Assembly: GCA_017405875.1 (NCBI GenBank)
Contig: JAFQZM010000013.1
Span: forward strand, 1,709 to 65,708
Reading direction: 5' to 3'
Source of the DNA: a bacterium
GTDB lineage: Bacteria > UBP6 > UBA1177
Length of the DNA stretch: 64,000 nt
Part shown: piece after piece, positions 3,936 through 47,317 of the stretch
Position numbering within the stretch: the stretch's first letter is position 1
Layout: every line of letters starts with the position of its first letter
Program-made: the position numbers and the translations under genes
The notes under the pieces: generated by a model
Told to the model about the DNA's origin: nothing
The model's input: the letters and a program-made list of their open reading frames with translations, nothing else
The model's database searches: none

Positions 3936-4068
3936 AATTGACTTGATTTTTGAGGCAGTTGAATAGGATTTTTTCATCCAAATCAATTGATTTTTCATAA
4001 GAAATATGACAAATTTGAATGGAAATTTGGTGACTTGAATGAGACAAGGCAAAATAAAGGAGTAAAAC

Positions 4069-5646
4069 ATGATCACGGGTGAACTTAAAAACAAAATCGA
4101 CAGTCTTTGGGAAATTTTCTGGACGGGCGGGCTCACGAATCCGCTTGATGTCATCGAGCAGATGACCTATCTGATGTTTATCCACGATCTTGACGAGACT
4201 GACAATCTCCGTGCGAAAGAGGCTGCGATGCTGGGCTTGCCTTATGAGAGCATTTTTGCCAAGGAGGTGCATGCCGGCGAGCGCACTGTTGACGGAAGTA
4301 TGCTCAAGTGGAGCGCTTTCCACGATTTTCCGGCTGCGAAGATGTATTCCACGGTGCAGGAATGGGTTTTCCCGTTCATCAAAAACCTGCACGGCGACAA
4401 GGAAAGTGCCTATTCAAAATATATGGGCGACGCTATTTTCAAGGTGCCGACTCCTCTCATGCTTGATAAGATCGTGACGGCGATGGACGGTATCTACGAG
4501 CAGATGGCACAGCTCAAGACCACGGACACACGCGGCGATGTCTATGAGTATCTCCTTTCCAAAATCGCGACTGCCGGTGTAAACGGGCAGTTCCGCACTC
4601 CGCGCCACATTATCCGGATGATGGTCGAACTTATGGATCCCAAGGCTGACGAGATCGTCTGCGACCCTGCCTGCGGCACATCGGGCTTTCTTGTTGCTGT
4701 CAGCGATTACCTCAAGGAGAGGCGCAAAGAGGAGGTTTTCTTCAACCGTCAGAACAAAGACCACTACATGAACTGCATGTTCCACGGTTTTGATATGGAC
4801 CGCACGATGCTCCGTATCGGCGCGATGAACATGATGACGCACGGTGTTGACAATCCTTTCATCGAATACCGCGACAGTCTTTCCGACCAGAATCCAGACC
4901 GCGACAAATATTCCCTTATTCTCGCGAATCCCCCTTTCAAAGGGAGTCTGGACGCGGATATCGTCTCGACCGATCTGCTTAAAGTCTGCAAAACCAAAAA
5001 GACGGAACTTCTCTTTTTAACACTTTTCCTGCGTATGCTCAAAGTGGGCGGACGCTGTGCATGCATCGTTCCCGACGGCGTTCTTTTCGGGTCTTCGACT
5101 GCGCACAAAGCCATCCGCAGTGAACTTATTGAAAACAACCGTCTTGAAGCGGTTATTTCGATGCCCTCAGGCGTGTTCAAACCGTATGCTGGTGTTTCGA
5201 CTGCGATCCTCATCTTCACCAAAACAGGGCACGGCGGCACCGACAAAGTCTGGTTCTACGACATGAAAGCTGACGGATACAGCCTTGATGACAAACGCAG
5301 TCCCGTCAAAGAAAACGATATTCCGGATATAATTCAGAAGTTTACCCTCTCAGTCGCTTCGCGCCAGCTCTCCCAAAGGGCGAGCCAAGAACTTGCCTCC
5401 CACTCAGGGGGAGGTGTCGCCGCAGAAAGCGGTGACGGAGAGGGCGACCGCACCTCGCAATCCTTCTTCGTTCCGAAAGATGAAATCGTCGCCAACGACT
5501 ACGACCTTTCCATCAACAAATACAAACAAACGGAATATGTGGCGGTAGAATACCCGCCCACAAGCGAAATCATGGCAAAAATCGATGAACTCGAAAGCGA
5601 GATCCAGACAGAACTTGCAGAGTTGAAGAAGATGATTGGAGAATAG
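4069..5646 (+). CDS. hsdM: Type I restriction-modification system, N6-adenine DNA methyltransferase subunit M
   Basis: 525 aa with an HsdM N-domain, AdoMet-binding region and the NPPF catalytic motif (LILANPPFKGS). RBS GGAG upstream. Carries an in-frame 40-codon repeat insertion (see 5344-5452). Confidence 0.95.
   Translation: MITGELKNKIDSLWEIFWTGGLTNPLDVIEQMTYLMFIHDLDETDNLRAKEAAMLGLPYESIFAKEVHAGERTVDGSMLKWSAFHDFPAAKMYSTVQEWVFPFIKNLHGDKESAYSKYMGDAIFKVPTPLMLDKIVTAMDGIYEQMAQLKTTDTRGDVYEYLLSKIATAGVNGQFRTPRHIIRMMVELMDPKADEIVCDPACGTSGFLVAVSDYLKERRKEEVFFNRQNKDHYMNCMFHGFDMDRTMLRIGAMNMMTHGVDNPFIEYRDSLSDQNPDRDKYSLILANPPFKGSLDADIVSTDLLKVCKTKKTELLFLTLFLRMLKVGGRCACIVPDGVLFGSSTAHKAIRSELIENNRLEAVISMPSGVFKPYAGVSTAILIFTKTGHGGTDKVWFYDMKADGYSLDDKRSPVKENDIPDIIQKFTLSVASRQLSQRASQELASHSGGGVAAESGDGEGDRTSQSFFVPKDEIVANDYDLSINKYKQTEYVAVEYPPTSEIMAKIDELESEIQTELAELKKMIGE
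5344..5452. repeat. Inverted pair of the ~48 bp hairpin repeat family, inserted in-frame within hsdM
   Basis: ccctctcagtcgcttcgcgccagctctcccaaagggcgagccaag followed by its imperfect reverse complement. Encodes TLSVASRQLSQRASQELASHSGGGVAAESGDGEGDRTSQS inside HsdM without breaking the frame. Confidence 0.6.
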
Positions 5647-5648
5647 GG

Positions 5649-7046
5649 ATGGAAAATCAGAATATTGAATACAAGCAGTCTTGGCGTGACGAATATCTCA
5701 AATGGGTCTGCGCCTTTGCAAATACAGACGGAGGCAGGCTTTATATCGGTGTAAAGGATGACGGCACTGTCTGCGGCGTGGATGATGCACACAAACTGAG
5801 CGAAGATATTCCGAATAAAATCCGTAATTCCATGGGTCTGATCTGCGCTGTCAATCTGCTTTCCGAGAACGGTCTTGATTATTTTGAAATCGTTATCGAA
5901 AAATATCCGTTTCCTGTAAGTTATCACGGCAGATATTACAAGCGCACAGGCTCTACGATTCAGGAAGTAAGCGGTATCGAGCTGGATAAAATGATTCTGG
6001 GAGTCCAGGGCCGCACATGGGATTCGGTTCCGGTTCCGCATATTTCGGTTGCAGATCTGGAAAATGACGCGATCAGACTTTTCAAGAAAAAGGCTAAAGA
6101 ATCGGGTCGTCTTGATGACGAGGCTTTAGATGTGACAAACGAAACTCTCATTCAGAATCTGCACATTACGGAAGGTCACTACTTGACCCGTGCCTGTATG
6201 CTTGCGTTCCATCCCGACCCTGAAAGATGGGTAACAGGCGCATATATCAAAGTCGCCTATTTTGAAAATGATGCAGACATTCTCTATCAGGATGAAATTC
6301 ACGGCCCGCTGATTCTTCAGGTCGAAAAAACAATGGAGCTGATTTATACAAAGTATATGAAAGCTCTCATTTCCTATGATGACCTCTACAGAAAGGAAAC
6401 CTTTTTCTTCCCGAAATCGGCGTTTCGTGAGCTGCTTCTGAATGCCGTGATCCACAAAGATTATCTTTCCACCACGCCGATTCAGATCCGTATTTACAAA
6501 GACAAAATCCGTCTCTGGAACGACGGAGCGCTTCCCAAAGAAGTTCCGGTCGAGGATTTGTTTAAGGAACACGTTTCAAAACCGTGCAATCCGAACCTTG
6601 CGAATGTCTTCTTCAAATGCGGCATGATTGAAAGCTGGGCTCGCGGCTTCAACAAAATTACAAGATACTGCGAAGAGGAAAACGCAAAACTACCGGTAAT
6701 CGACCTTTCTCTCGGCGGTGTAACTGCCCGCTGCTATGCGTCGGATGTCTATCTGGCACTGATGAATGAGTATGAAAATGCAGAAAAGTTCACAGAAAAT
6801 GACCAGAAAACTGTGGAAAAGACAGAAAAAGTGCCCAAAAGGTGCCCAAAAAGTGCCCAAAAGACATATCTTGCTATTGTAAAAAATCCCAACGCAACTA
6901 TCGAAGAATTAAGCAAAGAACTTGGGATATCTGAACGAGCTGTAAAAAAACATCAAAAATTACTCAAGGATGCAAATTTGATAACACGTCTGGAAGGAAG
7001 AAAATCTGGTTATTGGGAGATTGTGCAGGGGGAAGAGAATGAGTAA
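5649..7046 (+). CDS. AlbA_2/Schlafen-like putative DNA-binding domain protein with a C-terminal HATPase_c_4-like region and a winged-HTH (RecG-like transcriptional regulator family commonly embedded in Type I RM loci)
   Basis: N-terminus EYKQSWRDEYLKWVCAFANTDGGRLYIGVKDDGTVCGV is the AlbA_2 'divergent AAA' signature. C-terminal HTH (IEELSKELGISERAVKKHQKLL). Sits between hsdM and hsdS. Contains an in-frame 11 bp triplet repeat near its 3' end. Confidence 0.75.
   Translation: MENQNIEYKQSWRDEYLKWVCAFANTDGGRLYIGVKDDGTVCGVDDAHKLSEDIPNKIRNSMGLICAVNLLSENGLDYFEIVIEKYPFPVSYHGRYYKRTGSTIQEVSGIELDKMILGVQGRTWDSVPVPHISVADLENDAIRLFKKKAKESGRLDDEALDVTNETLIQNLHITEGHYLTRACMLAFHPDPERWVTGAYIKVAYFENDADILYQDEIHGPLILQVEKTMELIYTKYMKALISYDDLYRKETFFFPKSAFRELLLNAVIHKDYLSTTPIQIRIYKDKIRLWNDGALPKEVPVEDLFKEHVSKPCNPNLANVFFKCGMIESWARGFNKITRYCEEENAKLPVIDLSLGGVTARCYASDVYLALMNEYENAEKFTENDQKTVEKTEKVPKRCPKSAQKTYLAIVKNPNATIEELSKELGISERAVKKHQKLLKDANLITRLEGRKSGYWEIVQGEENE
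6781..6862. repeat. Short-period motif array (AGTTCACAGAAAA, ACTGTGGAAAAG, 3x GTGCCCAAAAR) inside the 3' part of the AlbA_2-like CDS
   Basis: Read directly; same motif repertoire as the arrays at 7058-7280 and 10978-11200. Translated in-frame as KTVEKTEKVPKRCPKSAQK. Confidence 0.6.
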
Positions 7047-7057
7047 AAAAATGTCCG

Positions 7058-7280
7058 AAAAAACTGTGGAGAAGAACTGTGGAGAAAAACAGAAAACTGT
7101 GGAGAAAACTAGGGAGAAAATCGGACTGAAGGTCACCAAAAAGGTCACCGAAAAGGTCACTATAAAAACTACCCAGAAAATAAAAAGTGGCCAAAAAAGT
7201 GGCCTGAAAACGCTAAAAAGTGGCCAGAAAAACGGCCTAAAAAGTTCGCAGAAAGGTTCACAGAAAAGTGGACAGAAAAT
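7058..7280. repeat. Array of ~12 bp units of form [variable 6-mer]+(A)GAAAA, each 6-mer repeated 2-3x in tandem (ACTGTGGAG, ACTAGGGAG, GGTCACC x3, ACTACCCAG, AGTGGCC x3, GTTCACAG, AGTGGAC)
   Basis: Read directly, between the AlbA_2 gene end and the hsdS start. ORF 7021-7290 (K-rich tetrapeptide repeats KTVE/KVTK/KSGQ) is its translation. Confidence 0.7.
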
Positions 7281-7296
7281 TGCGGGGTGACGAGAG

Positions 7297-8439
7297 ATGA
7301 AAACGGTAAGACTTGGAGATATATGCGATATTGTTTCTGGCGGAACCCCATCGCGGTCAAAGCCAGAATTTTGGCAGGATGGTACTATTCCTTGGATTAA
7401 GATCGGAAACATAAGGGGAAAATATGTATCGAAAGCAGATGAATACATTACAAAGGCTGGTTTGGATGCTTCTTCTGCAAAGATGCTGCCCAAAGGAACA
7501 ATTCTCTATACTATCTTTGCGACGCTGGGAGAGGTCTGTATTCTGGACATTGAAGCTTGCACAAATCAAGCTATTGCTGGCATTTCAATGCGAGAGTCAT
7601 CAGGAACTAAATCTGACTATTTATACTATTATCTAAAATCAAAAAAAAGCTATGTTAATGGAATTGGTCGTGGTGTTGCCCAAAACAACATTAACATGTC
7701 AATGCTACGTGATTTTAGAATACCATTACCAACAATTGAGCAACAAGATAAAATTGTTTCTGTCCTTGACAGAATATCCTCAATAATAGCACTACGTCGC
7801 CAGCAGCTCACCGCCCTCGATGAGCTCGTCAAAGCAAGGTTTGTGGAGATGTTTGGGGATGGGAAATATGATTTGAAGTCGGTTGAAGAATTGTGTTCTG
7901 AAATAGTAGACTGCCCACACACAACGCCTAAATATGATGGGGAATTGAAAAATCCTGCTATCAGAACTTCAGAAATAAAAAAGGGTTATATTGCATGGGA
8001 ATCTATGAAGTTTGTTTCTGATGATGAATATGAAGAAAGAATTGCCAGACTTCGCCCAGAAGCTGGAGATATCGTATATGGACGAGAAGGAACATTTGGA
8101 AATGCAGCAATACTTCCTGCAGGATATAAATTTTGTTTAGGACAGAGAGTTATGCTACTTAGACCAAATTATAAAAAAACTTCTTCCGAATATTTACTTC
8201 ATGCCGTTATCTCAGATGATGTTTACAAACAGGCCTTGGATAAAAATAATGCTTCTACTGTGGCACATGTAAATGTGAAAGATGTAAAGCAGTTTAAAGT
8301 ACCTTTGCCACCATTAGATTTACAGAAACGATTTGCTGATTTCGTTTCTCAGGTTGACAAAACTAAAGCAAACATTCAAAAATCCCTTGAAAAATCGCAG
8401 CTTTTGTTTGATAGTTTGATGCAGGAATATTTTGGGTAG
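7297..8439 (+). CDS. hsdS: Type I restriction-modification system specificity subunit S (two target-recognition domains)
   Basis: 380 aa with duplicated TRD architecture and conserved central/C-terminal HsdS repeats (LPPLDLQKRFADFV..). Position between hsdM and hsdR. Confidence 0.9.
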   Translation: MKTVRLGDICDIVSGGTPSRSKPEFWQDGTIPWIKIGNIRGKYVSKADEYITKAGLDASSAKMLPKGTILYTIFATLGEVCILDIEACTNQAIAGISMRESSGTKSDYLYYYLKSKKSYVNGIGRGVAQNNINMSMLRDFRIPLPTIEQQDKIVSVLDRISSIIALRRQQLTALDELVKARFVEMFGDGKYDLKSVEELCSEIVDCPHTTPKYDGELKNPAIRTSEIKKGYIAWESMKFVSDDEYEERIARLRPEAGDIVYGREGTFGNAAILPAGYKFCLGQRVMLLRPNYKKTSSEYLLHAVISDDVYKQALDKNNASTVAHVNVKDVKQFKVPLPPLDLQKRFADFVSQVDKTKANIQKSLEKSQLLFDSLMQEYFG

Positions 8440-8448
8440 GAGGGAAAA

Positions 8449-9828
8449 ATGAACAGCATTGATAAAATACAAGAACTTTTTAAGCAATTATCTGAGAATC
8501 GTGACAAATTATCTGTCATTCTGCCTCAGTTATACCCGATAGCATTAGAGCAAAAAGACTTCGTCGGCTTCTGTTTGCTATATCTATGGGGAACACCGTT
8601 GGGTACATGCAACGAAGCGAATCAGTTATATTTTCAAGATGCTACTAACATGATGCGTTTAGCAGGAATAAGTGAAGAAGACGCTACGAAGATCGAAGCA
8701 ACAGCTGCGAAACAATATTTGTCAATGAGAGACATAAACAAAGATAATGTCCCGAAAGATAAGATAAAAATATGGTCTGCACGAGAACTTGAAGATTTCC
8801 TTCAGCGTTGCGATGTGCAAATTGCCGACTTGAAAGTTCCGGACGGATTAAATCCACTTGCTTCTTATCATATGGAGCAGAGGATTAACTATCAAAAATT
8901 ATCAATCCGTTCAAGCAAAACACAGGCTGAAAAGCAGTATGCTATTTTACATCAGTTAATAACCTCAAAACTTGCTGAGTATCAGACAAAATTATCACAA
9001 ATGGAAGAAATAGGAACAACGCAGGAGAACAACATGACACCATATGAGAAATTAAGGAAATTACGCGACGAAATAGATGAGTTGATTGATAAACAGATGA
9101 CATATTCATTGCCTGAATTCAAAAACTGGCATAAAGAACTCGGATTATTTTTGTCAGAAAAATACGGCACACAAAGCAAGCAATATAAGAATTTTATCGG
9201 GCGGAGTTTTGCACCAAGTCTTCCGCATACTTCAGCACAAGATTATATTGATTCTTGCAAGCGTGGTTTGGAAATAACTCGAACCGAATTATCAGCATAC
9301 TTGGATGACATGAAAGGAGAAACTACGGAATTAGCAATAAATATCCCTAAAGAAAAAGGAGAAATAAGCATGGGAAAAGAAACAAAGGACAGAAAAAAAG
9401 TTTTTATTGTTCACGGGCATGATGAAGCAAAAAGACGGGAATTAAAAGAATTCCTAAAAGACAAACTTAAATTAGATCCTATTGTGTTATCTGACCAATT
9501 GCCCGAAAAAACACTGATTGATAAATTCGAAAAATATGCAAAGCAGTGTTCATACGCTTTTGTTATATATACTCCTGATGATCAAGTCTCCAATCAAGAA
9601 CAAAAATATTTTCAAGCTCGTCCGAATGTTATTTTTGAGTTGGGTTGGTTCTATGCACATTTTGCGGGTTCTCCTAATATTTGTATACTGAAGCAAGAGA
9701 CGGATGCTAAAGATAACTTGATTTTTTCAGATCTACAAGGAGTCGAATATCTTACTTTCAGAAAAGATATTGAGGAAAAATTTTATAAAATTCAAGAAAT
9801 ACTTAAGGCAAGAGGAATTATTAACTAA
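8449..9828 (+). CDS. Two-domain protein: ~300 aa alpha-helical N-terminal domain of unknown function plus a C-terminal TIR-like nucleotide-binding domain (COG4271 / PF10137, CAP12-PycTIR type)
   Basis: C-terminus KKVFIVHGHDEAKRRELKEFLKDKLKLDPIVL...YAFVIYTPDDQ...QARPNVIFELGWFYAHFAGSPNICILKQ...SDLQGVEYLTF follows the PF10137 consensus as I recall it (VFIVHGhD...vvLlTpDD...RaRqNVifElGyF...vEiPSDlsGv.Y), including the conserved Glu. Excellent RBS AGGAGGGAAAA. Very AT-rich. 10 bp after hsdS. Confidence 0.7.
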   Translation: MNSIDKIQELFKQLSENRDKLSVILPQLYPIALEQKDFVGFCLLYLWGTPLGTCNEANQLYFQDATNMMRLAGISEEDATKIEATAAKQYLSMRDINKDNVPKDKIKIWSARELEDFLQRCDVQIADLKVPDGLNPLASYHMEQRINYQKLSIRSSKTQAEKQYAILHQLITSKLAEYQTKLSQMEEIGTTQENNMTPYEKLRKLRDEIDELIDKQMTYSLPEFKNWHKELGLFLSEKYGTQSKQYKNFIGRSFAPSLPHTSAQDYIDSCKRGLEITRTELSAYLDDMKGETTELAINIPKEKGEISMGKETKDRKKVFIVHGHDEAKRRELKEFLKDKLKLDPIVLSDQLPEKTLIDKFEKYAKQCSYAFVIYTPDDQVSNQEQKYFQARPNVIFELGWFYAHFAGSPNICILKQETDAKDNLIFSDLQGVEYLTFRKDIEEKFYKIQEILKARGIIN

Positions 9829-9858
9829 GACGAGGGACGCAATTGACAGGAGAACAGA

Positions 9859-10857
9859 ATGGGTAAAATCGTTGAAATAGCTAAAATATTAGTTTCACCT
9901 ACTGAAAAATTAATTGATGTAATTCGAGCTGCAATTGGTAAAGCCTATGAACCAAGATATGAGAAAAGGATGAGTGATGCTAAAGCATATGAAATTACAA
10001 CTGTTGCAAACGCATTAAGAGATTCAAGCGACATTCCTATCACATATAGTAAAGAAGGCTTGACAATGAGCACAACAGATTTTGATGAGTTCAAAAAACG
10101 AACTCAAAGCCGTTTGGCATATCAAGAGCTGACAAAACAAAAAAATATAGAGTCTGTAGCTGATTACGCCTACGCACAATTAGAAGGTGCGGCAGATGTT
10201 CCTAATGATCCTGTTGATCAAGATTGGATAAATAGATTCTTTAATTCTGTTGCTGATGTCAGCAATGAAGATATGCAACTTTTGTGGGGAAAAATTCTTG
10301 CAGGTGAAGTTAAACAACCAGGGAGCTTTTCATTGCGTACTTTGGAAACTTTAAGAAATATGAGCAAAAAAGATGCTGAACTTTTTGTTAAAATTGCTCC
10401 ATTTTTAGTTTCTATCACTTCTGACTCTCAAAAAGTACTTTCTTCAGATGACGAATTATGTGAAAAGTATGGTTTGTCTTATGGAAAGATTATTATGATC
10501 TTGGATGAATGTGGATTGATTAATTCTTCAGCATTTCTGACTTTCAATCTTTCGCTTACTAAAGAACAAGAAATTCCTGTGTATACTCTCGAAAGAGTTG
10601 CTTTGCTGAGAGGACTAAACGATAACAGTGTAAAAATTTCATTTGGGGTCCACACTTTAACAAAAGTAGGATTGGAATTGTTTAATCTTATTGATGCAAA
10701 ACCAAACAATGAATATTTTAGTGATTTCATAAAGAACATAGAATCAGCTAACAAAGGAAAAGTTGTTGCAACTATTCATAGTGTAAATACGATACAAAAT
10801 GGTGGCATAAATTATAAAAAGGAACCTATCGAAATTATTAAAAGTGATAATAAATAA
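9859..10857 (+). CDS. DUF2806-like protein (uncharacterised; assignment from recalled motif)
   Basis: 332 aa; central DQDWINRFFNSVADVSNEDMQLLWGKILAGEVKQPGSFSLRTLETLRNMSKKDAELF resembles the DUF2806 (PF10987) core as I remember it. RBS AGGAGAACAGA. 30 bp after the TIR-like gene, same strand. Confidence 0.5.
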   Translation: MGKIVEIAKILVSPTEKLIDVIRAAIGKAYEPRYEKRMSDAKAYEITTVANALRDSSDIPITYSKEGLTMSTTDFDEFKKRTQSRLAYQELTKQKNIESVADYAYAQLEGAADVPNDPVDQDWINRFFNSVADVSNEDMQLLWGKILAGEVKQPGSFSLRTLETLRNMSKKDAELFVKIAPFLVSITSDSQKVLSSDDELCEKYGLSYGKIIMILDECGLINSSAFLTFNLSLTKEQEIPVYTLERVALLRGLNDNSVKISFGVHTLTKVGLELFNLIDAKPNNEYFSDFIKNIESANKGKVVATIHSVNTIQNGGINYKKEPIEIIKSDNK

Positions 10858-10977
10858 ATTGCAAGGCAAACCAATGACCGGCTTTATTAAACAAATTCTC
10901 TACGCAGCGTGTAGCGAATTAAGCAGGTCACATATCCGTGAAACAGCGGCGGTTATTGCTTCTTTTGGCAATAGCAC

Positions 10978-11200
10978 CAAAAAACTACCAAGACAAATGC
11001 GAAAAAACTAGGGTAGAAAGCGAAAAAACTAGGGTGGAAAATGAGAAAACTAGGGTAAAAAACTGTGGAGAAAACCAAGAAACTGTGGAGAAAAACTGTG
11101 GAGAAAACTAAAACAATTACCCAAAAAACTACCCAAAAAAGTTCACAGAAAAGTACAGTGAAAGGTACAGTGAAAAGTACGGTGAAAAGTTCGGAAAAAA
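10978..11200. repeat. Second ~12 bp motif array (ACTAGGGT x3, ACTGTGGAG x3, ACTACCCA x2, GTTCACAGAAAA, GTACAGTG x2, GTACGGTG, GTTCGG)
   Basis: Read directly. Shares ACTGTGGAGAAAA, ACTAGGG, ACTACCCA and GTTCACAGAAAA units with the 7058-7280 array, so the two arrays bracket hsdS plus the two embedded genes. ORF 11065-11388 is its translation. Confidence 0.7.
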
Positions 11201-11226
11201 TAATGGAACTCGTTAAAATTGTAGAA

Positions 11227-11272
11227 CCCCTCTCAGTCGCTTTGCGACAGCTCTCCCTAAGGGCGAGCCAAG
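11227..11272. repeat. Copy of the ~48 bp hairpin repeat family
   Basis: cccctctcagtcgctttgcgacagctctccctaagggcgagccaag. Confidence 0.6.
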
Positions 11273-11364
11273 AAAGAGGAGCGAGTCTTAGTAGTTACTA
11301 CCAAGACAAATGTGGAAAAACGAATTTAAAAAAATGCGGTAATTTTGGGGTGTTAGAAATAAAA

Positions 11365-11557
11365 GTGAACTTTAAAAGTGTACTTTAAGTAGCCTTTAAG
11401 TGTACTTTAAAAGTAGACTTTAAGTAGACTTTAAGTAGCCTTTAAGTGTACTTTAAAAGTATACTTTAAGTAGCCTGAGTAGACTTTGAGTAGACTTTGA
11501 GTAGACTTTGAAGTAGACTTTGAGTAGACTTTAAGTGGTCTTTAAGTAGACTTTGAA
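11365..11557. repeat. Tandem array of ~17 copies of an 11 bp unit GTAGACTTTRA (variants GTGTACTTTAAAA, GTAGCCTTTAA, GTGGTCTTTAA)
   Basis: Read directly; period 11 (occasionally 12-13). Ends ~35 bp before the hsdR start codon. Confidence 0.8.
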
Positions 11558-11589
11558 ATGGAAGACGAGAAGGTAAATGCGGAGAAAAC

Positions 11590-14397
11590 ATGATGCCGGA
11601 AGAAGTTAAAAAGTTTGATGTTTCAAACCCCTCTCAGTCTGCTGCGCAGCCAGCTCTCCCTAATGGCGAGCCAAGCGAATACGCGACCCGCAAAAAATAC
11701 ATCGACACGATGCTGCGTGATGACGGCTGGATAGAGGGAAAAAACTGGCTCAACGAATACGAACTCCCTGGTATGCCGAACAAGTCGGAAGTGGGTTTTG
11801 CCGACTATGCGCTGTTCGGTGACGACGGCCGCATCCTTGCTGTAATCGAGGCGAAACGCACCTGCGTCGATGTTTCAAAAGGGAGGCAGCAGGCAAAACT
11901 TTACGCCGATCTGATTGAGAAGAAGCAGGGATTCCGCCCGGTTGTTTTTCTTTCAAACGGTTTCGAGACGCGGATCGTTGACAACCAGTATCCTGAGCGG
12001 AAGGTCGCAAGGATCTATTCAAAACGCGATCTTGAAAAGTGGTTCAATCTTCAGCGGATGCGCAGCATCCTGAAAAACATTATGGTGGATAGAAATATCG
12101 CCGGACGTTACTATCAGGAAGCTGCAATAAAAGCGGTATGCGACAGCTTCGGAGAGAAAAACCGCAGAAAGGCTCTCCTTGTCATGGCGACAGGTTCCGG
12201 CAAAACAAGAACCGTCATCGCTCTCGTAAAAGTGCTGATGGACAAGGGCTGGATCAAAAACGTCCTCTTCCTCGCAGACAGAAATTCCCTCGTGACCCAG
12301 GCGAAACGCAGCTTTGTGAACCTTCTCCCCGATCTTTCTGTCACAAATCTCTGCGAAGAAAAATGCAACATAGAAGCTCACTGCGTCTTTTCGACTTACC
12401 AGACAATGATAAACTGCATCGATTCAGTGCGCGACAAAGAAGGAAGAGTCTTTTCCTGCGGACACTTCGACCTTCTGATATGCGACGAAGCGCACCGCTC
12501 GATCTACAACAAATATCAGGAAATTTTCAACTACTTCGATTCTCCGCTCGTAGGTCTCACCGCGACACCGAAAGACGAAATCGACAAAAACACCTACGAG
12601 GTTTTCGAGCTTGAAAACGGCGTTCCGACTTACGGATACGAGCTGGCGCAGGCAGTAAAAGACGGCTATCTGGTCGATTTTCTTTCAGTCGAAACGACAC
12701 TCAAATTCATCCAGCGCGGAATAGTTTACGACGAACTGAGCGATGAAGAAAAAGAGGAATACGAAAAGACTTTTGCCGATGAAAGCGGCGAAATCCCCGA
12801 AAGCATCACCCCGTCAGCACTGAACGACTGGATCTTCAACGAAGACACCATCCGCAAAGTCCTGCGAATCCTGATGAACGACGGACTTAAAATCGACTAC
12901 AACAGCAAAATCGGCAAAACGATCATCTTTGCAAAAAACCACAGACACGCCGAAAAAATCCTCGAAGTTTTCGGGAAGGAATTTCCCCACCTGAACAACT
13001 ACGCCAAAGTGATCGACAACACCATAAACTATGCCCAGAGCGCGATCGACGAATTCTCGGACGCAAAAAAACTGCCGCAGGTAGCCATTTCAGTCGATAT
13101 GCTCGATACCGGAATCGATGTTCCCGAAGTGCTGAATCTGGTTTTCTTCAAAGTCGTTCTCAGCAAAGCAAAATTCTGGCAGATGATAGGACGCGGAACA
13201 CGCCTATGCCCGGGACTTATCGACGGATTCGACAAGACAAAATTCTATATCTTCGATTTCTGCGGGAACTTCGAGTTTTTCCGCATGAACAAAGGGCGCG
13301 CAAGTGCCGAAACTGTGGCTCTGCAAGGGGCTCTTTTCCTTCTCAAAGCGCAGATCGCCTTCAAACTTCAGGAGATCATCTGGCAGACACCTGAACTCAT
13401 CGCTTTCCGCAAAAAACTGGTTGAGGAAATGGTGAAAAAAGTGCGCGAACTCGACCGCGGCAATTTTGCCGTAAGACAGCATCTGAAATATGTCGAACTC
13501 TATTCAGACCCTGAAAACTACAAGGCTTTGACTTACGAAGAGACACTCAACATGAAGCGCGAACTCGTGCCGCTTATCCAGCCCGACATCGATGATGTCA
13601 AAGCACTGCGTTTCGATGCCCTTCTTTACGGAATAGAGCTTGCATTATTAGCAGGAAACAAATACGGCGCGGCGCGGAACGACCTCATGAAAAAGGTGAA
13701 TGCCGTGGCAAATATCGCCAATATTCCCGCAATTATGATGCAGTCAGAACTTATAAACAAAATCCTCCACACATATTACCTGGATACCGCAGGAATCATG
13801 GAATTTGAGGAGATCCGCATAAATCTGCGCAATCTGATGACGTATGTCAACTATTCGCACAGTCTATACGACACGAATTTCAGCGACGAAGTGCTTTCGA
13901 CAAAATGGAGCGTCGCAGAAGCCGAAACTACCTATCTCGCAACTTACCGCGAACGGGCGGAATACTTTGTCCGCAAGCACCAGAACGAAGGAGTCATCGC
14001 CAAACTCAAAAGCAATCTTCCTCTCACAGGCAAAGATATGACCGATCTCGAGGCGATACTCTGGAGCGAAGCAGGAACCAAGGAAGATTACGAAGCTTTG
14101 TATAAAGCAAAACCGCTCGGCGAATTCGTGCGTGAAATCGTCGGACTCGACATGAATGCGGCAAAAGAGGCTTTCGCGGAATTTCTGAACAACACCAGCC
14201 TTGACAGCCGCCAGATCTATTTCGTCAACCAGATCGTGGAATACATCGTTCACAACGGCATGATGAAAGACCTTTCAGTCCTTCAGGAAGCACCGTTTAC
14301 CGACCGCGGCAGCATCGTGGAAGTCTTCACCGACCTTTCAGTCTGGGCAGGCATCCGCAAAGTAATTGAGCAGGTCAACGCAAACGCAGCGGCGTAA
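11590..14397 (+). CDS. hsdR: Type I restriction-modification system restriction subunit R (SF2 helicase/endonuclease)
   Basis: 935 aa with an N-terminal RKKYIDTMLRDDGW HsdR motif, PD-(D/E)xK region (VIEAKR), Walker A ATGSGKTRT, DEAH-like LICDEAHRS and helicase C-motifs (QMIGRGTR). The N-terminal 30 aa include an in-frame repeat copy. Confidence 0.95.
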   Translation: MMPEEVKKFDVSNPSQSAAQPALPNGEPSEYATRKKYIDTMLRDDGWIEGKNWLNEYELPGMPNKSEVGFADYALFGDDGRILAVIEAKRTCVDVSKGRQQAKLYADLIEKKQGFRPVVFLSNGFETRIVDNQYPERKVARIYSKRDLEKWFNLQRMRSILKNIMVDRNIAGRYYQEAAIKAVCDSFGEKNRRKALLVMATGSGKTRTVIALVKVLMDKGWIKNVLFLADRNSLVTQAKRSFVNLLPDLSVTNLCEEKCNIEAHCVFSTYQTMINCIDSVRDKEGRVFSCGHFDLLICDEAHRSIYNKYQEIFNYFDSPLVGLTATPKDEIDKNTYEVFELENGVPTYGYELAQAVKDGYLVDFLSVETTLKFIQRGIVYDELSDEEKEEYEKTFADESGEIPESITPSALNDWIFNEDTIRKVLRILMNDGLKIDYNSKIGKTIIFAKNHRHAEKILEVFGKEFPHLNNYAKVIDNTINYAQSAIDEFSDAKKLPQVAISVDMLDTGIDVPEVLNLVFFKVVLSKAKFWQMIGRGTRLCPGLIDGFDKTKFYIFDFCGNFEFFRMNKGRASAETVALQGALFLLKAQIAFKLQEIIWQTPELIAFRKKLVEEMVKKVRELDRGNFAVRQHLKYVELYSDPENYKALTYEETLNMKRELVPLIQPDIDDVKALRFDALLYGIELALLAGNKYGAARNDLMKKVNAVANIANIPAIMMQSELINKILHTYYLDTAGIMEFEEIRINLRNLMTYVNYSHSLYDTNFSDEVLSTKWSVAEAETTYLATYRERAEYFVRKHQNEGVIAKLKSNLPLTGKDMTDLEAILWSEAGTKEDYEALYKAKPLGEFVREIVGLDMNAAKEAFAEFLNNTSLDSRQIYFVNQIVEYIVHNGMMKDLSVLQEAPFTDRGSIVEVFTDLSVWAGIRKVIEQVNANAAA
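11628..11675. repeat. In-frame copy of the ~48 bp hairpin repeat within the first 30 codons of hsdR
   Basis: cccctctcagtctgctgcgcagccagctctccctaatggcgagccaag encodes NPSQSAAQPALPNGEPSE upstream of the conserved HsdR N-motif. Confidence 0.55.
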
Positions 14398-14559
14398 CCC
14401 TCTCAGCCAGCGTTGCGAAGAAACCCTCTCAGTCGCTTCGCGCCAGCTTCCCCTGAGTGGGAGCCATGTGGGTGAGAGGCAAGTCTTGGCTCGCCCTTTG
14501 GGAGAGCTGTCTGCACAGCAGACTGAGAGGGCAAAGTGTCACGCAGTGACGGAGAGGGC
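14398..14559. terminator. Cluster of 3-4 copies of the hairpin repeat family in inverted orientation immediately after the hsdR stop; likely transcription terminator / island boundary
   Basis: ccctctcagtcgcttcgcgccagcttcccctgagtgggagcca ... cttggctcgccctttgggagagctgtctgcacagcagactgagaggg form a long inverted repeat, plus partial flanking copies. Confidence 0.5.
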
Positions 14560-47226: not shown

Positions 47227-47310
47227 TTAACGGTTTTCCAAGCTTTTTTTTGAAAAATTTAACGGTTTTCCATGAATTTTTCGGAAAATTTTAACGGTTT
47301 TCCAAGATTT
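47227..47310. repeat. Three phased direct repeats of TTTAACGGTTTTCCA(A/T)G, 32-33 bp centre-to-centre, plus a partial inverted half-site ACCGTT
   Basis: Read directly in the 146 bp gap between the polA stop and the AAA+/DUF4143 gene start. Confidence 0.5.
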
Positions 47311-47317
47311 TTACCGT

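What the first reader, a model, noticed from the sequence alone, without database searches (positions are those of the whole stretch)
11365..11557. ~17 tandem copies of an 11 bp unit (GTAGACTTTRA) immediately upstream of hsdR
A clean 11 bp-period tandem array is rare in bacterial intergenic DNA. It ends ~35 bp before the hsdR start. The period is close to one helical turn, so every copy presents the same face. Options: a copy-number-variable (slipped-strand) promoter spacer conferring phase-variable hsdR expression; a nucleation array for a DNA-binding protein; or a source of many overlapping TAGACT/TTTAAG promoter-like hexamers. It is not a CRISPR array, since there are no unique spacers. Phase-variable restriction is known for Type I/III systems but usually via homopolymers or 4-5 bp repeats. 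An 11-mer array would be unusual.
Basis: seen in the sequence. Interest (0 to 1): 0.65.

Follow-up and report, generated by a model that had tools for sequence, protein, structure and literature searches.

The report
Orphaned promoter-operator repeat array before hsdR
The 17-copy, roughly 11-bp repeat in front of the restriction gene hsdR is the leftover, expanded control region of a neighbouring Schlafen-type defence gene that was deleted from this strain, and it does not look like a dedicated on/off switch for restriction.

Summary
The array is real: 17 head-to-tail units at 11361-11554, ending 35 nt before the hsdR ATG. It is less clean than described, with units of 9-13 bp, 78% matches and a 46-bp higher-order block.

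The unit, AAGT-RN-ACTTT (typically AAGTAGACTTT), is not specific to hsdR. It is the conserved cis-element of a family of 434-aa Schlafen(AlbA_2)-HATPase_c_4-wHTH genes ("MNLG...GSKRDGxWxVK").
- In 47 of 47 non-redundant relatives, from Bacillota, Spirochaetales and other MAGs, 2-4 units sit just upstream of the gene.
- The usual layout is -35 TAGACT, a 17-bp spacer, then (TGn)TA(G/T)ACT as -10, with one further conserved unit upstream.
- In most members at or above about 57% identity, units also overlap the stop codon (AAG TAG ACTTT).

Related strains (hsdR 96-98% identical) carry array-gene-unit-leader-hsdR at this exact position. The window has lost the gene through unit-to-unit recombination, leaving a "solo" array.

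Solo alleles with 9, 13 and 17 units exist in different lineages. Within a lineage, 4-5 independent assemblies are identical. The proximal TAGACT pair is preserved in all three alleles, so the "phase-variable promoter spacer" reading is not supported.

The most likely role is a relic promoter/operator array, probably built of wHTH binding sites, that may now drive hsdR. That role is inferred, not shown.

The parts
11361..11554 (+). The tandem array: 17 units of 9-13 bp with core AAGT-RN-(A/C)CTTT, all in one orientation pointing towards hsdR.
11361..11476 (+). Left part of the array: about 2.5 copies of a 46-48-bp four-unit block [AAAAGTnnACTTT][AA(AA)GTnnACTTT][AAGTAGCCTTT][AAGTGTACTTT]. This block resembles the canonical four-unit promoter of the gene family. 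One whole block is absent in the 13-unit and 9-unit alleles.
   Evidence: (period 46).
11477..11532 (+). Five G-type units (GAGTAGACTTT or GAAGTAGACTTT). This is the unit type that makes up the arrays in front of the intact gene in L026, L028 and L117. The 9-unit allele has only one.
11533..11554 (+). The last two units, AAGTGGTCTTT AAGTAGACTTT. The last one is the deletion junction: in L117 the same AAGTGGCCTTT AAGTAGACTTT is followed by 4 more units and then the gene, whose stop codon lies in an identical AAG TAG ACTTT unit.
11525..11552 (+). Proximal promoter-like pair: TAGACT (11525-11530), a 16-bp spacer, then TAGACT (11547-11552). It matches 8 of 12 consensus positions and the second hexamer ends 37 nt before the ATG. 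It is preserved in the 9-, 13- and 17-unit alleles. Its function is inferred.
   Evidence: The stricter tool scan does not call it.
11555..11589 (+). A 35-nt leader, GAAATGGAAGACGAGAAGGTAAATGCGGAGAAAAC, with GGAG at 11581. It is 100% identical to the sequence that follows the stop codon of the Schlafen gene in L026. It is present twice in L117, once after gene #1 and once after gene #2.
11590..14397 (+). hsdR, the Type I restriction subunit (935 aa). Its first 29 codons are a recruited start plus an in-frame copy of the 46-nt element.
11298..11360 (+). Left flank of the array (CTACCAAGACAAATG...GTAATTTT...). It is collinear with the left flank of the array in L028, L117 and L118.
11227..11272 (+). 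A 46-nt dispersed element (CCCTCTCAGTC...GGCGAGCCAAG). It precedes the array here and in L026 and L117. Other copies are at 5345-5391 (+), 11628-11675 (+) and 14485-14531 (-).
11000..11215 (+). Debris of a paralogous Schlafen-HTH gene: linker repeats of 12-21 bp (EKTRV, TVEK, TTQK, STVK) and the first residues of a wHTH (SSEKIMELVKI), cut off by the 46-nt element.

Best explanation
The array is an orphaned ('solo') and expanded copy of the promoter-operator repeat of a Schlafen(AlbA_2)-HATPase_c_4-wHTH gene family. This family corresponds to the pSlfn-HisKinase-HTH class of prokaryotic Schlafens.

In intact family members, 2-4 units of AAGTAGACTTT lie just upstream of the gene. One unit supplies the -35 hexamer (TAGACT). 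A degenerate unit fills the 17-bp spacer. A third supplies the -10 hexamer ((TGn)TAGACT or TATACT). A fourth conserved unit lies 13 bp further upstream. One to five more units start at the stop codon.

In the rumen Spirochaetales lineage of this window, the upstream set expanded to 12-13 units in front of such a gene, which lies directly upstream of hsdR. Recombination between a unit of the upstream array and the unit overlapping the stop codon then removed the gene. The array was left fused to the 35-nt leader of hsdR.

The units are most likely half-palindromic binding sites (AAGT-NN-ACTT) for the family's own wHTH, acting in autoregulation. In the window the array probably still fires as a train of weak TAGACT/TAGACT promoters into hsdR, with no cognate repressor encoded nearby.

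Shown by sequence comparison: the family association, the positional architecture, the collinearity and the deletion junction, and the 9/13/17-unit alleles.

Inferred: promoter activity, wHTH binding, and any effect on hsdR.
For: 1. Association with the gene family.
- A scan of 185,579 genomes for three consecutive units gave 23 loci. In most loci with the GTAGAC or GTATAC word, the array abuts a gene ending ...GSKRDGxWxVK*, with the stop codon inside the first unit. In six loci the gene is flanked by units on both sides.
- Eighty further loci were found by protein search.
- All 47 non-redundant loci have units upstream at up to 2 mismatches.
- At up to 1 mismatch there are 109 hits in 5,640 bp of upstream sequence (43 of 47 loci), against 10 hits in 285,770 bp of flanks.
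- Twenty-eight of 47 loci have units at the stop codon.

2. Promoter geometry.
- In 36 of 47 loci the best sigma-70-like site has TAGACT as its -35 hexamer, nearly always with a 17-bp spacer and TA(G/T)ACT as -10, often TG-extended. Across all 47 loci the -10 hexamer ends a median of 25 nt before the ATG.
- In L024 and L059 an intrinsic-terminator-like hairpin with a T-run lies immediately before the array. The promoter must therefore lie within or after the array.

3. More than a bare promoter.
- Thirty-three promoters aligned on the two hexamers alone still show a conserved extra unit 13 bp upstream, plus conserved AAAG and TTT flanks.
- Members at about 50% identity carry perfect dyads such as AAAGTCTACTaaaaAGTAGACTTT and GCTAAGTCTACTaaatAGTAGACTTAGC.
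- The recognition helix SLGGVKKI is nearly invariant. Variants of GVKK tend to go with variant words (Fisher p=0.03, not corrected for phylogeny).

4. Relic status.
- Both flanks of the window array are collinear with L028 (array-gene-unit-leader-hsdR; hsdR 97.6% nt identity) and with L026 and L117.
- The junction AAGTGGYCTTT AAGTAGACTTT is internal to the L117 array.
- The window holds no cognate gene.
- A second, independent solo array occurs in a Butyrivibrio MAG, L014.
Against: - No transcription or binding data exist.
- The TAGACT/TAGACT pairs in the window match only 8 of 12 consensus positions. The tool's standard scan (threshold 9 of 12) calls no promoter in the array.
- No terminator-like site was found between DUF2806 and hsdR. 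hsdR could therefore simply be read through from upstream, with the array an inert relic.
- The direction of the event is not proven. A deletion, or an insertion of a circular gene-plus-units molecule into a pre-existing array, would give the same structures.
- The covariation between the wHTH and the word is weak and confounded by phylogeny.
- The motif logo is biased by the way hits were selected.
- Whether the strain has a cognate Schlafen gene elsewhere in its genome is unknown.
Confidence: 0.7

Rival explanations
1. Contingency locus. Slipped-strand changes in unit number switch or tune hsdR expression at high frequency, giving phase-variable restriction.
For: Copy number does differ between closely related lineages: solo alleles of 9, 13 and 17 units sit in front of HsdR proteins that are 94-98% identical. 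Arrays in front of the intact gene have 12-13 units. Perfect arrays of 12 and about 27 units exist in other family members, L056 and L059. These show that the units can expand.
Against: Within each allele, 4-5 independent assemblies from different samples are identical in length, with one SNP. The window array is imperfect, at 78% matches. One of the differences is a whole 46-bp block, not a single unit. All differences lie upstream of a preserved proximal TAGACT-16/17-TAGACT pair, so neither reading frame nor -35/-10 spacing changes. The array is inherited from another gene's promoter. Consensus assemblies could, however, hide minority length variants.
Confidence: 0.1
2. Inert fossil. The array is a neutral minisatellite scar of the lost gene with no present function, and hsdR is transcribed by read-through from the upstream hsd and defence genes.
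For: No terminator-like site was found in 10800-11700, and the standard consensus scan finds no promoter in the array. The 733-bp gap is largely debris: a linker remnant and the 46-nt element. Array length drifts between lineages.
Against: The proximal unit pair and the 35-nt leader with its GGAG are conserved in all three solo alleles and in L028. The same unit geometry is the only candidate promoter of the intact gene in relatives where a terminator precedes the array.
Confidence: 0.2
3. Recombination or integration site. The arrays are the ends of a mobile single-gene cassette and exist mainly to allow excision and insertion of the Schlafen gene. The window shows the empty site.
For: The gene is flanked by units in direct orientation in many phyla. 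Flanks beyond about 200 bp are unrelated between loci: only 1 of 32 upstream flanks and 0 of 29 downstream flanks find a match. Two independent solo arrays exist. In L117 gene #2 is likewise flanked by two copies of the leader.
Against: No recombinase is consistently linked. The upstream units sit at fixed promoter positions. Members at about 50% identity have upstream units but none at the stop codon, so upstream regulation is the conserved role. Deletion between direct repeats needs no dedicated function.
Confidence: 0.1
4. Partition-site or iteron array, as in parC of plasmid R1 (ten 11-bp repeats bound by ParR) or plasmid replication iterons.
For: The 11-bp direct repeats are spaced at about one helical turn and are associated with a promoter, as in R1 parC (own knowledge).
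Against: No ParM/ParR, ParA/ParB or Rep gene is among the neighbours annotated. The context is chromosomal, with housekeeping genes next door: truA-like pseudouridine synthase and TatD. There is no match in 72,556 plasmids.
Confidence: 0.02
5. A structured RNA or a CRISPR-like array.
For: The single strand folds better than shuffles (RNA z = -2.7, DNA z = -4.5), because each unit is a near-palindrome.
Against: No Rfam family reaches its gathering score; there are only sub-threshold eukaryotic miRNA-hairpin matches. There are no unique spacers between repeats. The structure is degenerate and slippable, as expected of any quasi-palindromic tandem repeat.
Confidence: 0.02

Closest known systems
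parC of plasmid R1 (ten direct 11-bp repeats flanking the par promoter, bound cooperatively by ParR) and the omega-repressor heptad arrays of pSM19035 (own knowledge)
   Same: These are contiguous short repeats at about one helical turn. They overlap a promoter, occur in variable number and sometimes in both orientations, and are read by a small dimeric DNA-binding domain that autoregulates the adjacent gene.
   Different: There are no partition genes and no plasmid here. The presumed reader is the C-terminal wHTH of a 434-aa Schlafen-GHKL-type protein. Units also overlap the stop codon.
Simple-sequence contingency loci of restriction-modification systems (phasevarions; repeats in mod or hsd genes or in promoter spacers) (own knowledge)
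   Same: It is a tandem repeat next to an R-M gene whose copy number differs between strains.
   Different: The units are 11-13 bp and imperfect. The array lies outside the ORF and outside the -35/-10 spacer, is stable within lineages, and is inherited from a different gene.
Solo LTRs, and other deletions between flanking direct repeats (own knowledge)
   Same: A gene flanked by the same repeat on both sides was lost by repeat-to-repeat recombination, leaving one merged repeat at the site.
   Different: The repeats are arrays of an 11-bp regulatory unit, not terminal repeats of a transposable element.
Prokaryotic Schlafen defence genes, HisKinase-HTH class (PMC13056530)
   Same: The gene that owns the array has the SLFN_AlbA_2 domain with an intact Ex4ExK motif, a HATPase_c_4 domain and a C-terminal HTH. 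In this lineage it sits in a defence island.
   Different: That paper did not test the HisKinase-HTH class for defence. In my term searches of its text I found no mention of a cis-repeat or a DNA target of the HTH. The repeat architecture described here is, as far as my searches went, unreported.

Membership tests
cis-repeat of the 'MNLG...GSKRDGxWxVK' Schlafen-HATPase_c_4-wHTH gene family (defined here) | The unit matches the AAGT-RN-ACTTT consensus (AGTAGACTTT). | tested here: met
   All 17 units fit the core. Nine of them contain AGTAGACTTT exactly.
cis-repeat of the 'MNLG...GSKRDGxWxVK' Schlafen-HATPase_c_4-wHTH gene family (defined here) | Units are in direct orientation at 11-13 bp spacing, giving TAGACT hexamers two units apart (16-18 bp spacer). 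| tested here: met
   The same geometry holds in 36 of 47 relatives.
cis-repeat of the 'MNLG...GSKRDGxWxVK' Schlafen-HATPase_c_4-wHTH gene family (defined here) | The array is adjacent to the cognate gene, 15-70 nt upstream of its ATG and/or overlapping its stop codon. | tested here: not met
   There is no cognate gene in the window; the best match is a 22%-identical paralogue at 5649-7046. The feature is met at the homologous position in L026, L028, L112, L113 and L117. The window copy is therefore an orphan.
cis-repeat of the 'MNLG...GSKRDGxWxVK' Schlafen-HATPase_c_4-wHTH gene family (defined here) | The units are bound by the family's wHTH and act as promoter/operator. | not testable with these tools
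   There is only indirect support: dyad versions, an extra conserved unit, and weak covariation.
Phase-variable (contingency) repeat controlling an R-M gene | A tract of identical short units, typically 1-7 nt. | tested here: not met
   Units are 9-13 nt, with 78% matches and 8% indels.
Phase-variable (contingency) repeat controlling an R-M gene | The tract lies inside the ORF or between -35 and -10, so that a unit change alters the frame or the spacing. | tested here: not met
   The array is upstream of the ORF. Allele differences lie upstream of a conserved proximal hexamer pair.
Phase-variable (contingency) repeat controlling an R-M gene | Unit number varies within populations and between very close isolates. 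| tested here: inconclusive
   There are 9-, 13- and 17-unit alleles between lineages. Within a lineage, 4-5 assemblies are identical. Read-level data are not available.
Phase-variable (contingency) repeat controlling an R-M gene | Expression switches with unit number. | not testable with these tools
   This needs reporters or transcript data.
Solo repeat left by deletion between flanking direct repeats | A homologous locus exists with the gene flanked by the same repeat, both outer flanks are collinear, and the junction lies inside a unit. | tested here: met
parC-type centromere or plasmid iterons | Adjacent partition (ParM/ParR, ParA/ParB) or Rep genes, and a plasmid location. | tested here: not met
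   Neighbours are annotated. There is no plasmid match.
CRISPR array | Repeats separated by unique spacers of similar length. | tested here: not met
   The units are contiguous.

The most novel reading that the evidence does not exclude
The AAGT-NN-ACTTT unit is the cognate DNA site of the C-terminal wHTH in a widespread Schlafen-HisKinase-HTH family. The gene carries its own operator array at both ends. The array autoregulates the gene. It can expand to 12-27 copies. It also serves as the substrate for precise gene loss, leaving solo arrays that place neighbouring defence genes (here hsdR) under a now unrepressed, or trans-regulated, Schlafen-type promoter.
Probability: 0.4. Interest if true: 0.65.

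Novelty: new variant of a known kind. Interest (0 to 1): 0.45.

Why it matters
For this window, the result turns an apparently exotic 'hsdR switch' into an explained relic. It shows that the hsdS-hsdR interval of this rumen spirochaete is a cassette-swapping defence hotspot.

More generally, the comparison reveals a conserved 11-12-bp cis-element tied to one subfamily of the HisKinase-HTH class. That class is the second most common architecture of prokaryotic Schlafens (PMC13056530), and the role of its HTH is unknown. The element gives a concrete DNA sequence with which to test HTH binding, autoregulation and possible signal-dependent release.

I found no description of this motif or architecture in the searchable literature.

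Tried and rejected
- A first pattern for the 46-nt element used the wrong internal spacing and found nothing. A corrected pattern and an alignment found four copies.
- The standard promoter/terminator scan of 10800-11700 called no promoter in the array and no terminator. I therefore used a relaxed script (at least 8 of 12 matches) and say so.
- Rfam at gathering score and at E<=1 gave only a tRNA elsewhere and sub-threshold miRNA-hairpin noise. The RNA reading was dropped.
- A plasmid BLAST of the array region gave no match.
- A viral-contig scan found four short arrays of related words (GTGTAC, GTACAC, GTGGAC), with no family gene in those loci. These were not informative.
- NCBIfam, PADLOC and PDB give no functional name for the family; the only PDB match is the uncharacterised 3LMM.
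- An association with Type I R-M was tested and rejected as a general property. Only the spirochaete loci have hsd genes next to the family gene.
- The orientation of the next downstream ORF was 16 same-strand versus 6 opposite when stop-codon units are present. The method is crude and this was not used as evidence.
- The unit logo is biased by hit selection. It was replaced by the hexamer-anchored alignment.

Full report
**1. Observation**

The repeat is real. Tandem Repeats Finder reports 11382-11554 with period 11, 15.5 copies, 78% matches, 8% indels and score 189. It scores the same stretch slightly higher with period 46.

Reading the sequence and splitting it by script gives 17 contiguous units from 11361 to 11554.
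- Eleven units are 11 bp, four are 13 bp (AAAAGTNNACTTT), one is 12 bp and one is 9 bp.
- Units 1-10 are about 2.5 copies of a four-unit, 46-48-bp block.
- Units 11-15 are GAGTAGACTTT-type.
- Units 16-17 are AAGTGGTCTTT and AAGTAGACTTT.

A two-unit pattern with up to 3 mismatches hits 10 times, only inside the array, and never in 100 shuffles. The single-unit pattern AAGT[AG]NACTTT occurs nowhere else in the 64 kb on either strand.

All six frames contain stop codons. The array ends 35 nt before the ATG of a 935-aa ORF with HSDR_N, ResIII and EcoEI_R_C domains.

**2. Surroundings**

The hsd locus is a defence island:
- hsdM, 4066-5646;
- a Schlafen(AlbA_2)-HATPase_c_4-HTH gene, 5649-7046;
- hsdS, 7297-8439;
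- a TIR protein, 8449-9828;
- DUF2806, 9859-10857;
- a 733-bp gap;
- hsdR.

The gap is not ordinary intergenic DNA.
- 11000-11215 holds 12-21-bp A-rich 'word' repeats. In shifting frames these spell EKTRV, TVEK, TTQK and STVK, then SSEKIMELVKI. They match the linker of a Schlafen-HTH paralogue in a relative.
- A 46-nt element follows at 11227-11272. It recurs at 5345-5391, at 11628-11675 (in frame within hsdR) and, inverted, at 14485-14531.
- Then come a 63-bp flank, the array, and a 35-nt leader with GGAG.

**3. Whose repeat is it?**

I scanned one genome for each of 185,579 species for three consecutive units (ACTTTRAGTNNACTTTRAGTNNACTTT). This gave 23 loci. Many were from rumen or gut Bacillota, with two from Spirochaetales.

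In most loci with the GTAGAC or GTATAC word, the array begins exactly at the stop codon of an ORF ending ...GSKRDGxWxVK* (AAG TAG ACTTT). In six loci a 434-437-aa gene is flanked by units on both sides.

The gene has SLFN_AlbA_2, HATPase_c_4 and a winged HTH. It also has an invariant E6...E11-x-K13. This is the Ex4ExK catalytic motif of Schlafen nucleases described in PMC13056530. That paper lists Slfn-HisKinase-HTH as the second commonest prokaryotic Schlafen architecture (19.2%) but did not test it.

NCBIfam, PADLOC and PDB give no functional name for the family.

**4. Architecture across the family**

A profile search of metagenome contigs returned 80 more loci at 48-98% identity. After removing relatives above 95% identity, 47 loci remain.
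- All 47 have units upstream at up to 2 mismatches.
- At up to 1 mismatch there are 109 hits in 5,640 bp of the upstream 120 nt (43 of 47 loci). The distant flanks have 10 hits in 285,770 bp.
- In 36 of 47 loci the best sigma-70-like site has TAGACT as its -35 hexamer, nearly always with a 17-bp spacer and TA(G/T)ACT as -10, often preceded by TGn. Across all 47 loci the -10 hexamer ends a median of 25 nt before the ATG.
- Thirty-three promoters aligned only on those two hexamers give the consensus aaaaagTAgACTTT.AAAGTAGACTTTaagtag.cTTTatgGTAgACTtta. A further unit 13 bp upstream of the -35 unit, and the AAAG and TTT flanks, are conserved without having been used as anchors.
- In L024 and L059 a terminator-like hairpin with a T-run lies directly before the units. 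The gene's promoter must therefore lie within or after them.
- Members at about 50% identity carry true dyads upstream. Examples are AAAGTCTACTaaaaAGTAGACTTT, GCTAAGTCTACTaaatAGTAGACTTAGC, and a 24-bp-arm palindrome of two units in L087. This is the signature of a dimeric DNA-binding protein rather than of promoter hexamers alone.
- The unit itself is a near-palindrome (AAGT-NN-ACTT), and some loci use the perfect palindrome AAGTATACTT.
- The predicted recognition helix (SLGGVKKI) is almost invariant. Loci with changes in GVKK tend to have variant words (4 of 7 versus 6 of 40; Fisher p=0.03). This count is not corrected for phylogeny, so it is weak support.
- Units at the stop codon occur in 28 of 47 loci, mostly among members at or above about 57% identity.
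- Sequence beyond about 200 bp from the gene is unrelated between loci: one shared pair among 32 upstream flanks and none among 29 downstream flanks. The gene plus its units therefore travels as a single-gene module.
- The link with Type I R-M is confined to the spirochaete lineage.

**5. What happened in this window**

Relatives whose hsdR is 96-98% identical show the intact arrangement at the same site.
- L026, L112 and L113: AbiH, 46-nt element, 13 units, Schlafen gene #1, one unit at its stop plus the leader, Schlafen gene #2, hsdR.
- L028: 12 units, gene #1, unit plus leader, hsdR directly.
- L117: 13 units of the same mixed composition as the window, gene #1, gene #2, leader, hsdR.

The window's left flank (11298-11360) and its right flank (from 11544 on, 97.6% identity over 2.8 kb) are collinear with L028. 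Only the gene is missing.

In L117 the pair AAGTGGCCTTT AAGTAGACTTT is followed by four more units and then the gene. In the window the same pair is followed directly by GAAATGG..., the sequence that follows the stop-codon unit.

The simplest reading is a deletion by recombination between an upstream unit and the stop-codon unit, leaving a solo array. The reverse event, insertion of a circular gene-plus-units molecule into an older array, cannot be formally excluded.

The window contains no cognate gene. An independent solo array at a different site occurs in a Butyrivibrio MAG (L014). There the upstream flank typical of the gene is fused directly to units.

**6. Copy-number behaviour**

Solo arrays with the same junction and leader come in three alleles.

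| Allele | Loci | Samples or contigs |
|---|---|---|
| 17 units | window, L001-L004 | four samples; identical length, one SNP |
| 13 units | L118-L121 | four contigs; followed by a DUF559 insertion |
| 9 units | L122-L126 | five contigs; two HsdR variants |

The alleles differ by a whole 46-bp block, by the number of G-type units, and by point changes. All three keep the proximal TAGACT-16/17 bp-TAGACT pair and the leader.

Short (3-5 unit) arrays in front of intact genes are almost always the same within clusters above 95% identity, differing by one unit, or two in one cluster, in a few. Expanded arrays arose several times: 12 perfect units in L056 and about 27 in L059.

The units can therefore expand and contract over evolutionary time. 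I see no sign of the rapid, spacing-changing or frame-changing variation that defines contingency loci. Read-level data would be needed to exclude low-frequency variants.

**7. How it most likely works**

Shown by sequence comparison:
- the unit is the family's conserved cis-element at promoter positions;
- the window's array is an orphaned, expanded copy fused to the hsdR leader.

Inferred:
- The units are binding sites of the family's wHTH (autoregulation).
- Units two apart form weak promoters. The window has five such pairs at 8 of 12 matches, the last with its -10 hexamer at 11547-11552. The stricter tool scan calls none.
- The array therefore probably contributes transcription into hsdR. 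If no cognate protein is made elsewhere in the genome, that transcription would be unrepressed.
- The resident paralogue (5649-7046) has a similar recognition-helix pattern, SERAVKKHQKLL, so cross-binding is conceivable but untested.

Because no terminator-like site separates DUF2806 from hsdR, read-through transcription with an inert array remains a serious alternative.

**8. Comparison with known systems, and novelty**

Functionally the closest analogues are arrays of contiguous short repeats at about one helical turn that overlap a promoter and are read cooperatively by a small dimeric DNA-binding domain. Examples are parC of plasmid R1 (ten 11-bp repeats, ParR) and the omega-repressor heptads (own knowledge). 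The array is not a member of those systems: there are no partition or Rep genes, the context is chromosomal, and there is no plasmid match.

It is not a CRISPR array (no spacers). It is not a known RNA. It fails the structural criteria of R-M contingency repeats.

Its origin parallels solo-LTR formation.

Full-text searches for the motif, for the domain names, for COG2865 and for prokaryotic Schlafen papers found no description of this repeat.

I rate it a new variant of a known kind (a promoter/operator repeat array). It is of moderate interest. The window's copy is a relic, but the family-wide association gives a testable DNA target for the HTH of a major, uncharacterised class of bacterial Schlafens.

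Noticed in passing
window 5345-5391 (+), 11227-11272 (+), 11628-11675 (+), 14485-14531 (-): A 46-nt dispersed element, CCCTCTCAGTC(T)GCT..GC(A)G.CAGCTCTCCC.AA.GGCGAGCCAAG, has four copies, all around the hsd locus. One lies inside the 3' part of hsdM, one before the array, one in frame inside the first 30 codons of hsdR, and one inverted just after hsdR. There are no other copies in the 64 kb. The same element sits before the array in L026 and L117. It may mark cassette boundaries.
   Followed up: partly
window 6782-6860, 7051-7290, 11000-11215: There are runs of different 12/13/21-bp A-rich 'words', each repeated 2-4 times (AAAACTGTGGAG, AAGGTCACCAAA, AAAAGTGGCC, AAAACTAGGGT, AAAAGTACAGTG). 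They encode tetra- or penta-peptide repeats (KTVE, KVTE, KTTQ, KSGQ, EKTRV). These form the linker before the wHTH of Schlafen-HTH paralogues. They also form an 82-codon ORF made of nothing else (7051-7290), and a frame-shifted remnant in the gap.
   Followed up: partly
L026, L028, L112-L129 versus window 8449-11589: The hsdS-hsdR interval is a hypervariable cassette site in this species group, among strains with 94-98% identical HsdR. Cassettes seen include TIR+DUF2806, TIR+AbiH, one or two Schlafen genes, a split Schlafen pseudogene, a 580-aa unknown protein, DUF559, and an rve transposase.
   Followed up: partly
L117 1896-1940 and 3465-3500: The ~30-nt hsdR leader (GGAAGACGAGAAAGTAAATGCGGAGAAAA) occurs twice, once after Schlafen gene #1 and once after gene #2. 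Gene #2 is therefore also bracketed by direct repeats, and L028 looks like the corresponding deletion product.
   Followed up: no
L059 about 2700-2990; L056 about 575-700: Two very large and nearly perfect arrays lie in front of intact family genes. L059 has about 27 units alternating AAAGTAGACTTT and AAATAGACTTT. L056 has 11-12 perfect AAGTAGACTTT units. These would be better candidates for slipped-strand variation than the window's array.
   Followed up: no
L016 (Anaerovoracaceae) and L018 (Methanomassiliicoccales MAG): Nearly identical family genes (97% aa) appear in a bacterial genome and in an archaeal MAG. Each is flanked on both sides by the same ~190-bp direct repeat, which contains a hairpin, a promoter-like stretch and the unit array. 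This suggests either recent transfer or a binning error.
   Followed up: no
L014 6600-6660 (Butyrivibrio MAG): A second, independent solo array. The upstream flank typical of the Butyrivibrio-type gene (...GGGAAATATAAACAA...ATATACTTTGAAAGTAGACTTT) runs straight into units with no gene.
   Followed up: partly
L108-L111 (IMG/VR contigs): Short arrays of related words (AAGTGTACTTT x3, AAGTACACTTT x6, AAGTGGACTTT) occur in viral contigs, with no family gene in those loci. One lies next to a tRNA-like sequence.
   Followed up: no
window 47227-47312: A 32-bp tandem repeat of 2.7 copies (TTAACGGTTTTCCAAGATTTTTTCGGAAAAAT), score 130.
   Followed up: no
window about 22000-43000 and 8000-11000: Long stretches at 31-38% G+C lie in a window that is otherwise 43-52% G+C. 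This suggests acquired islands.
   Followed up: no
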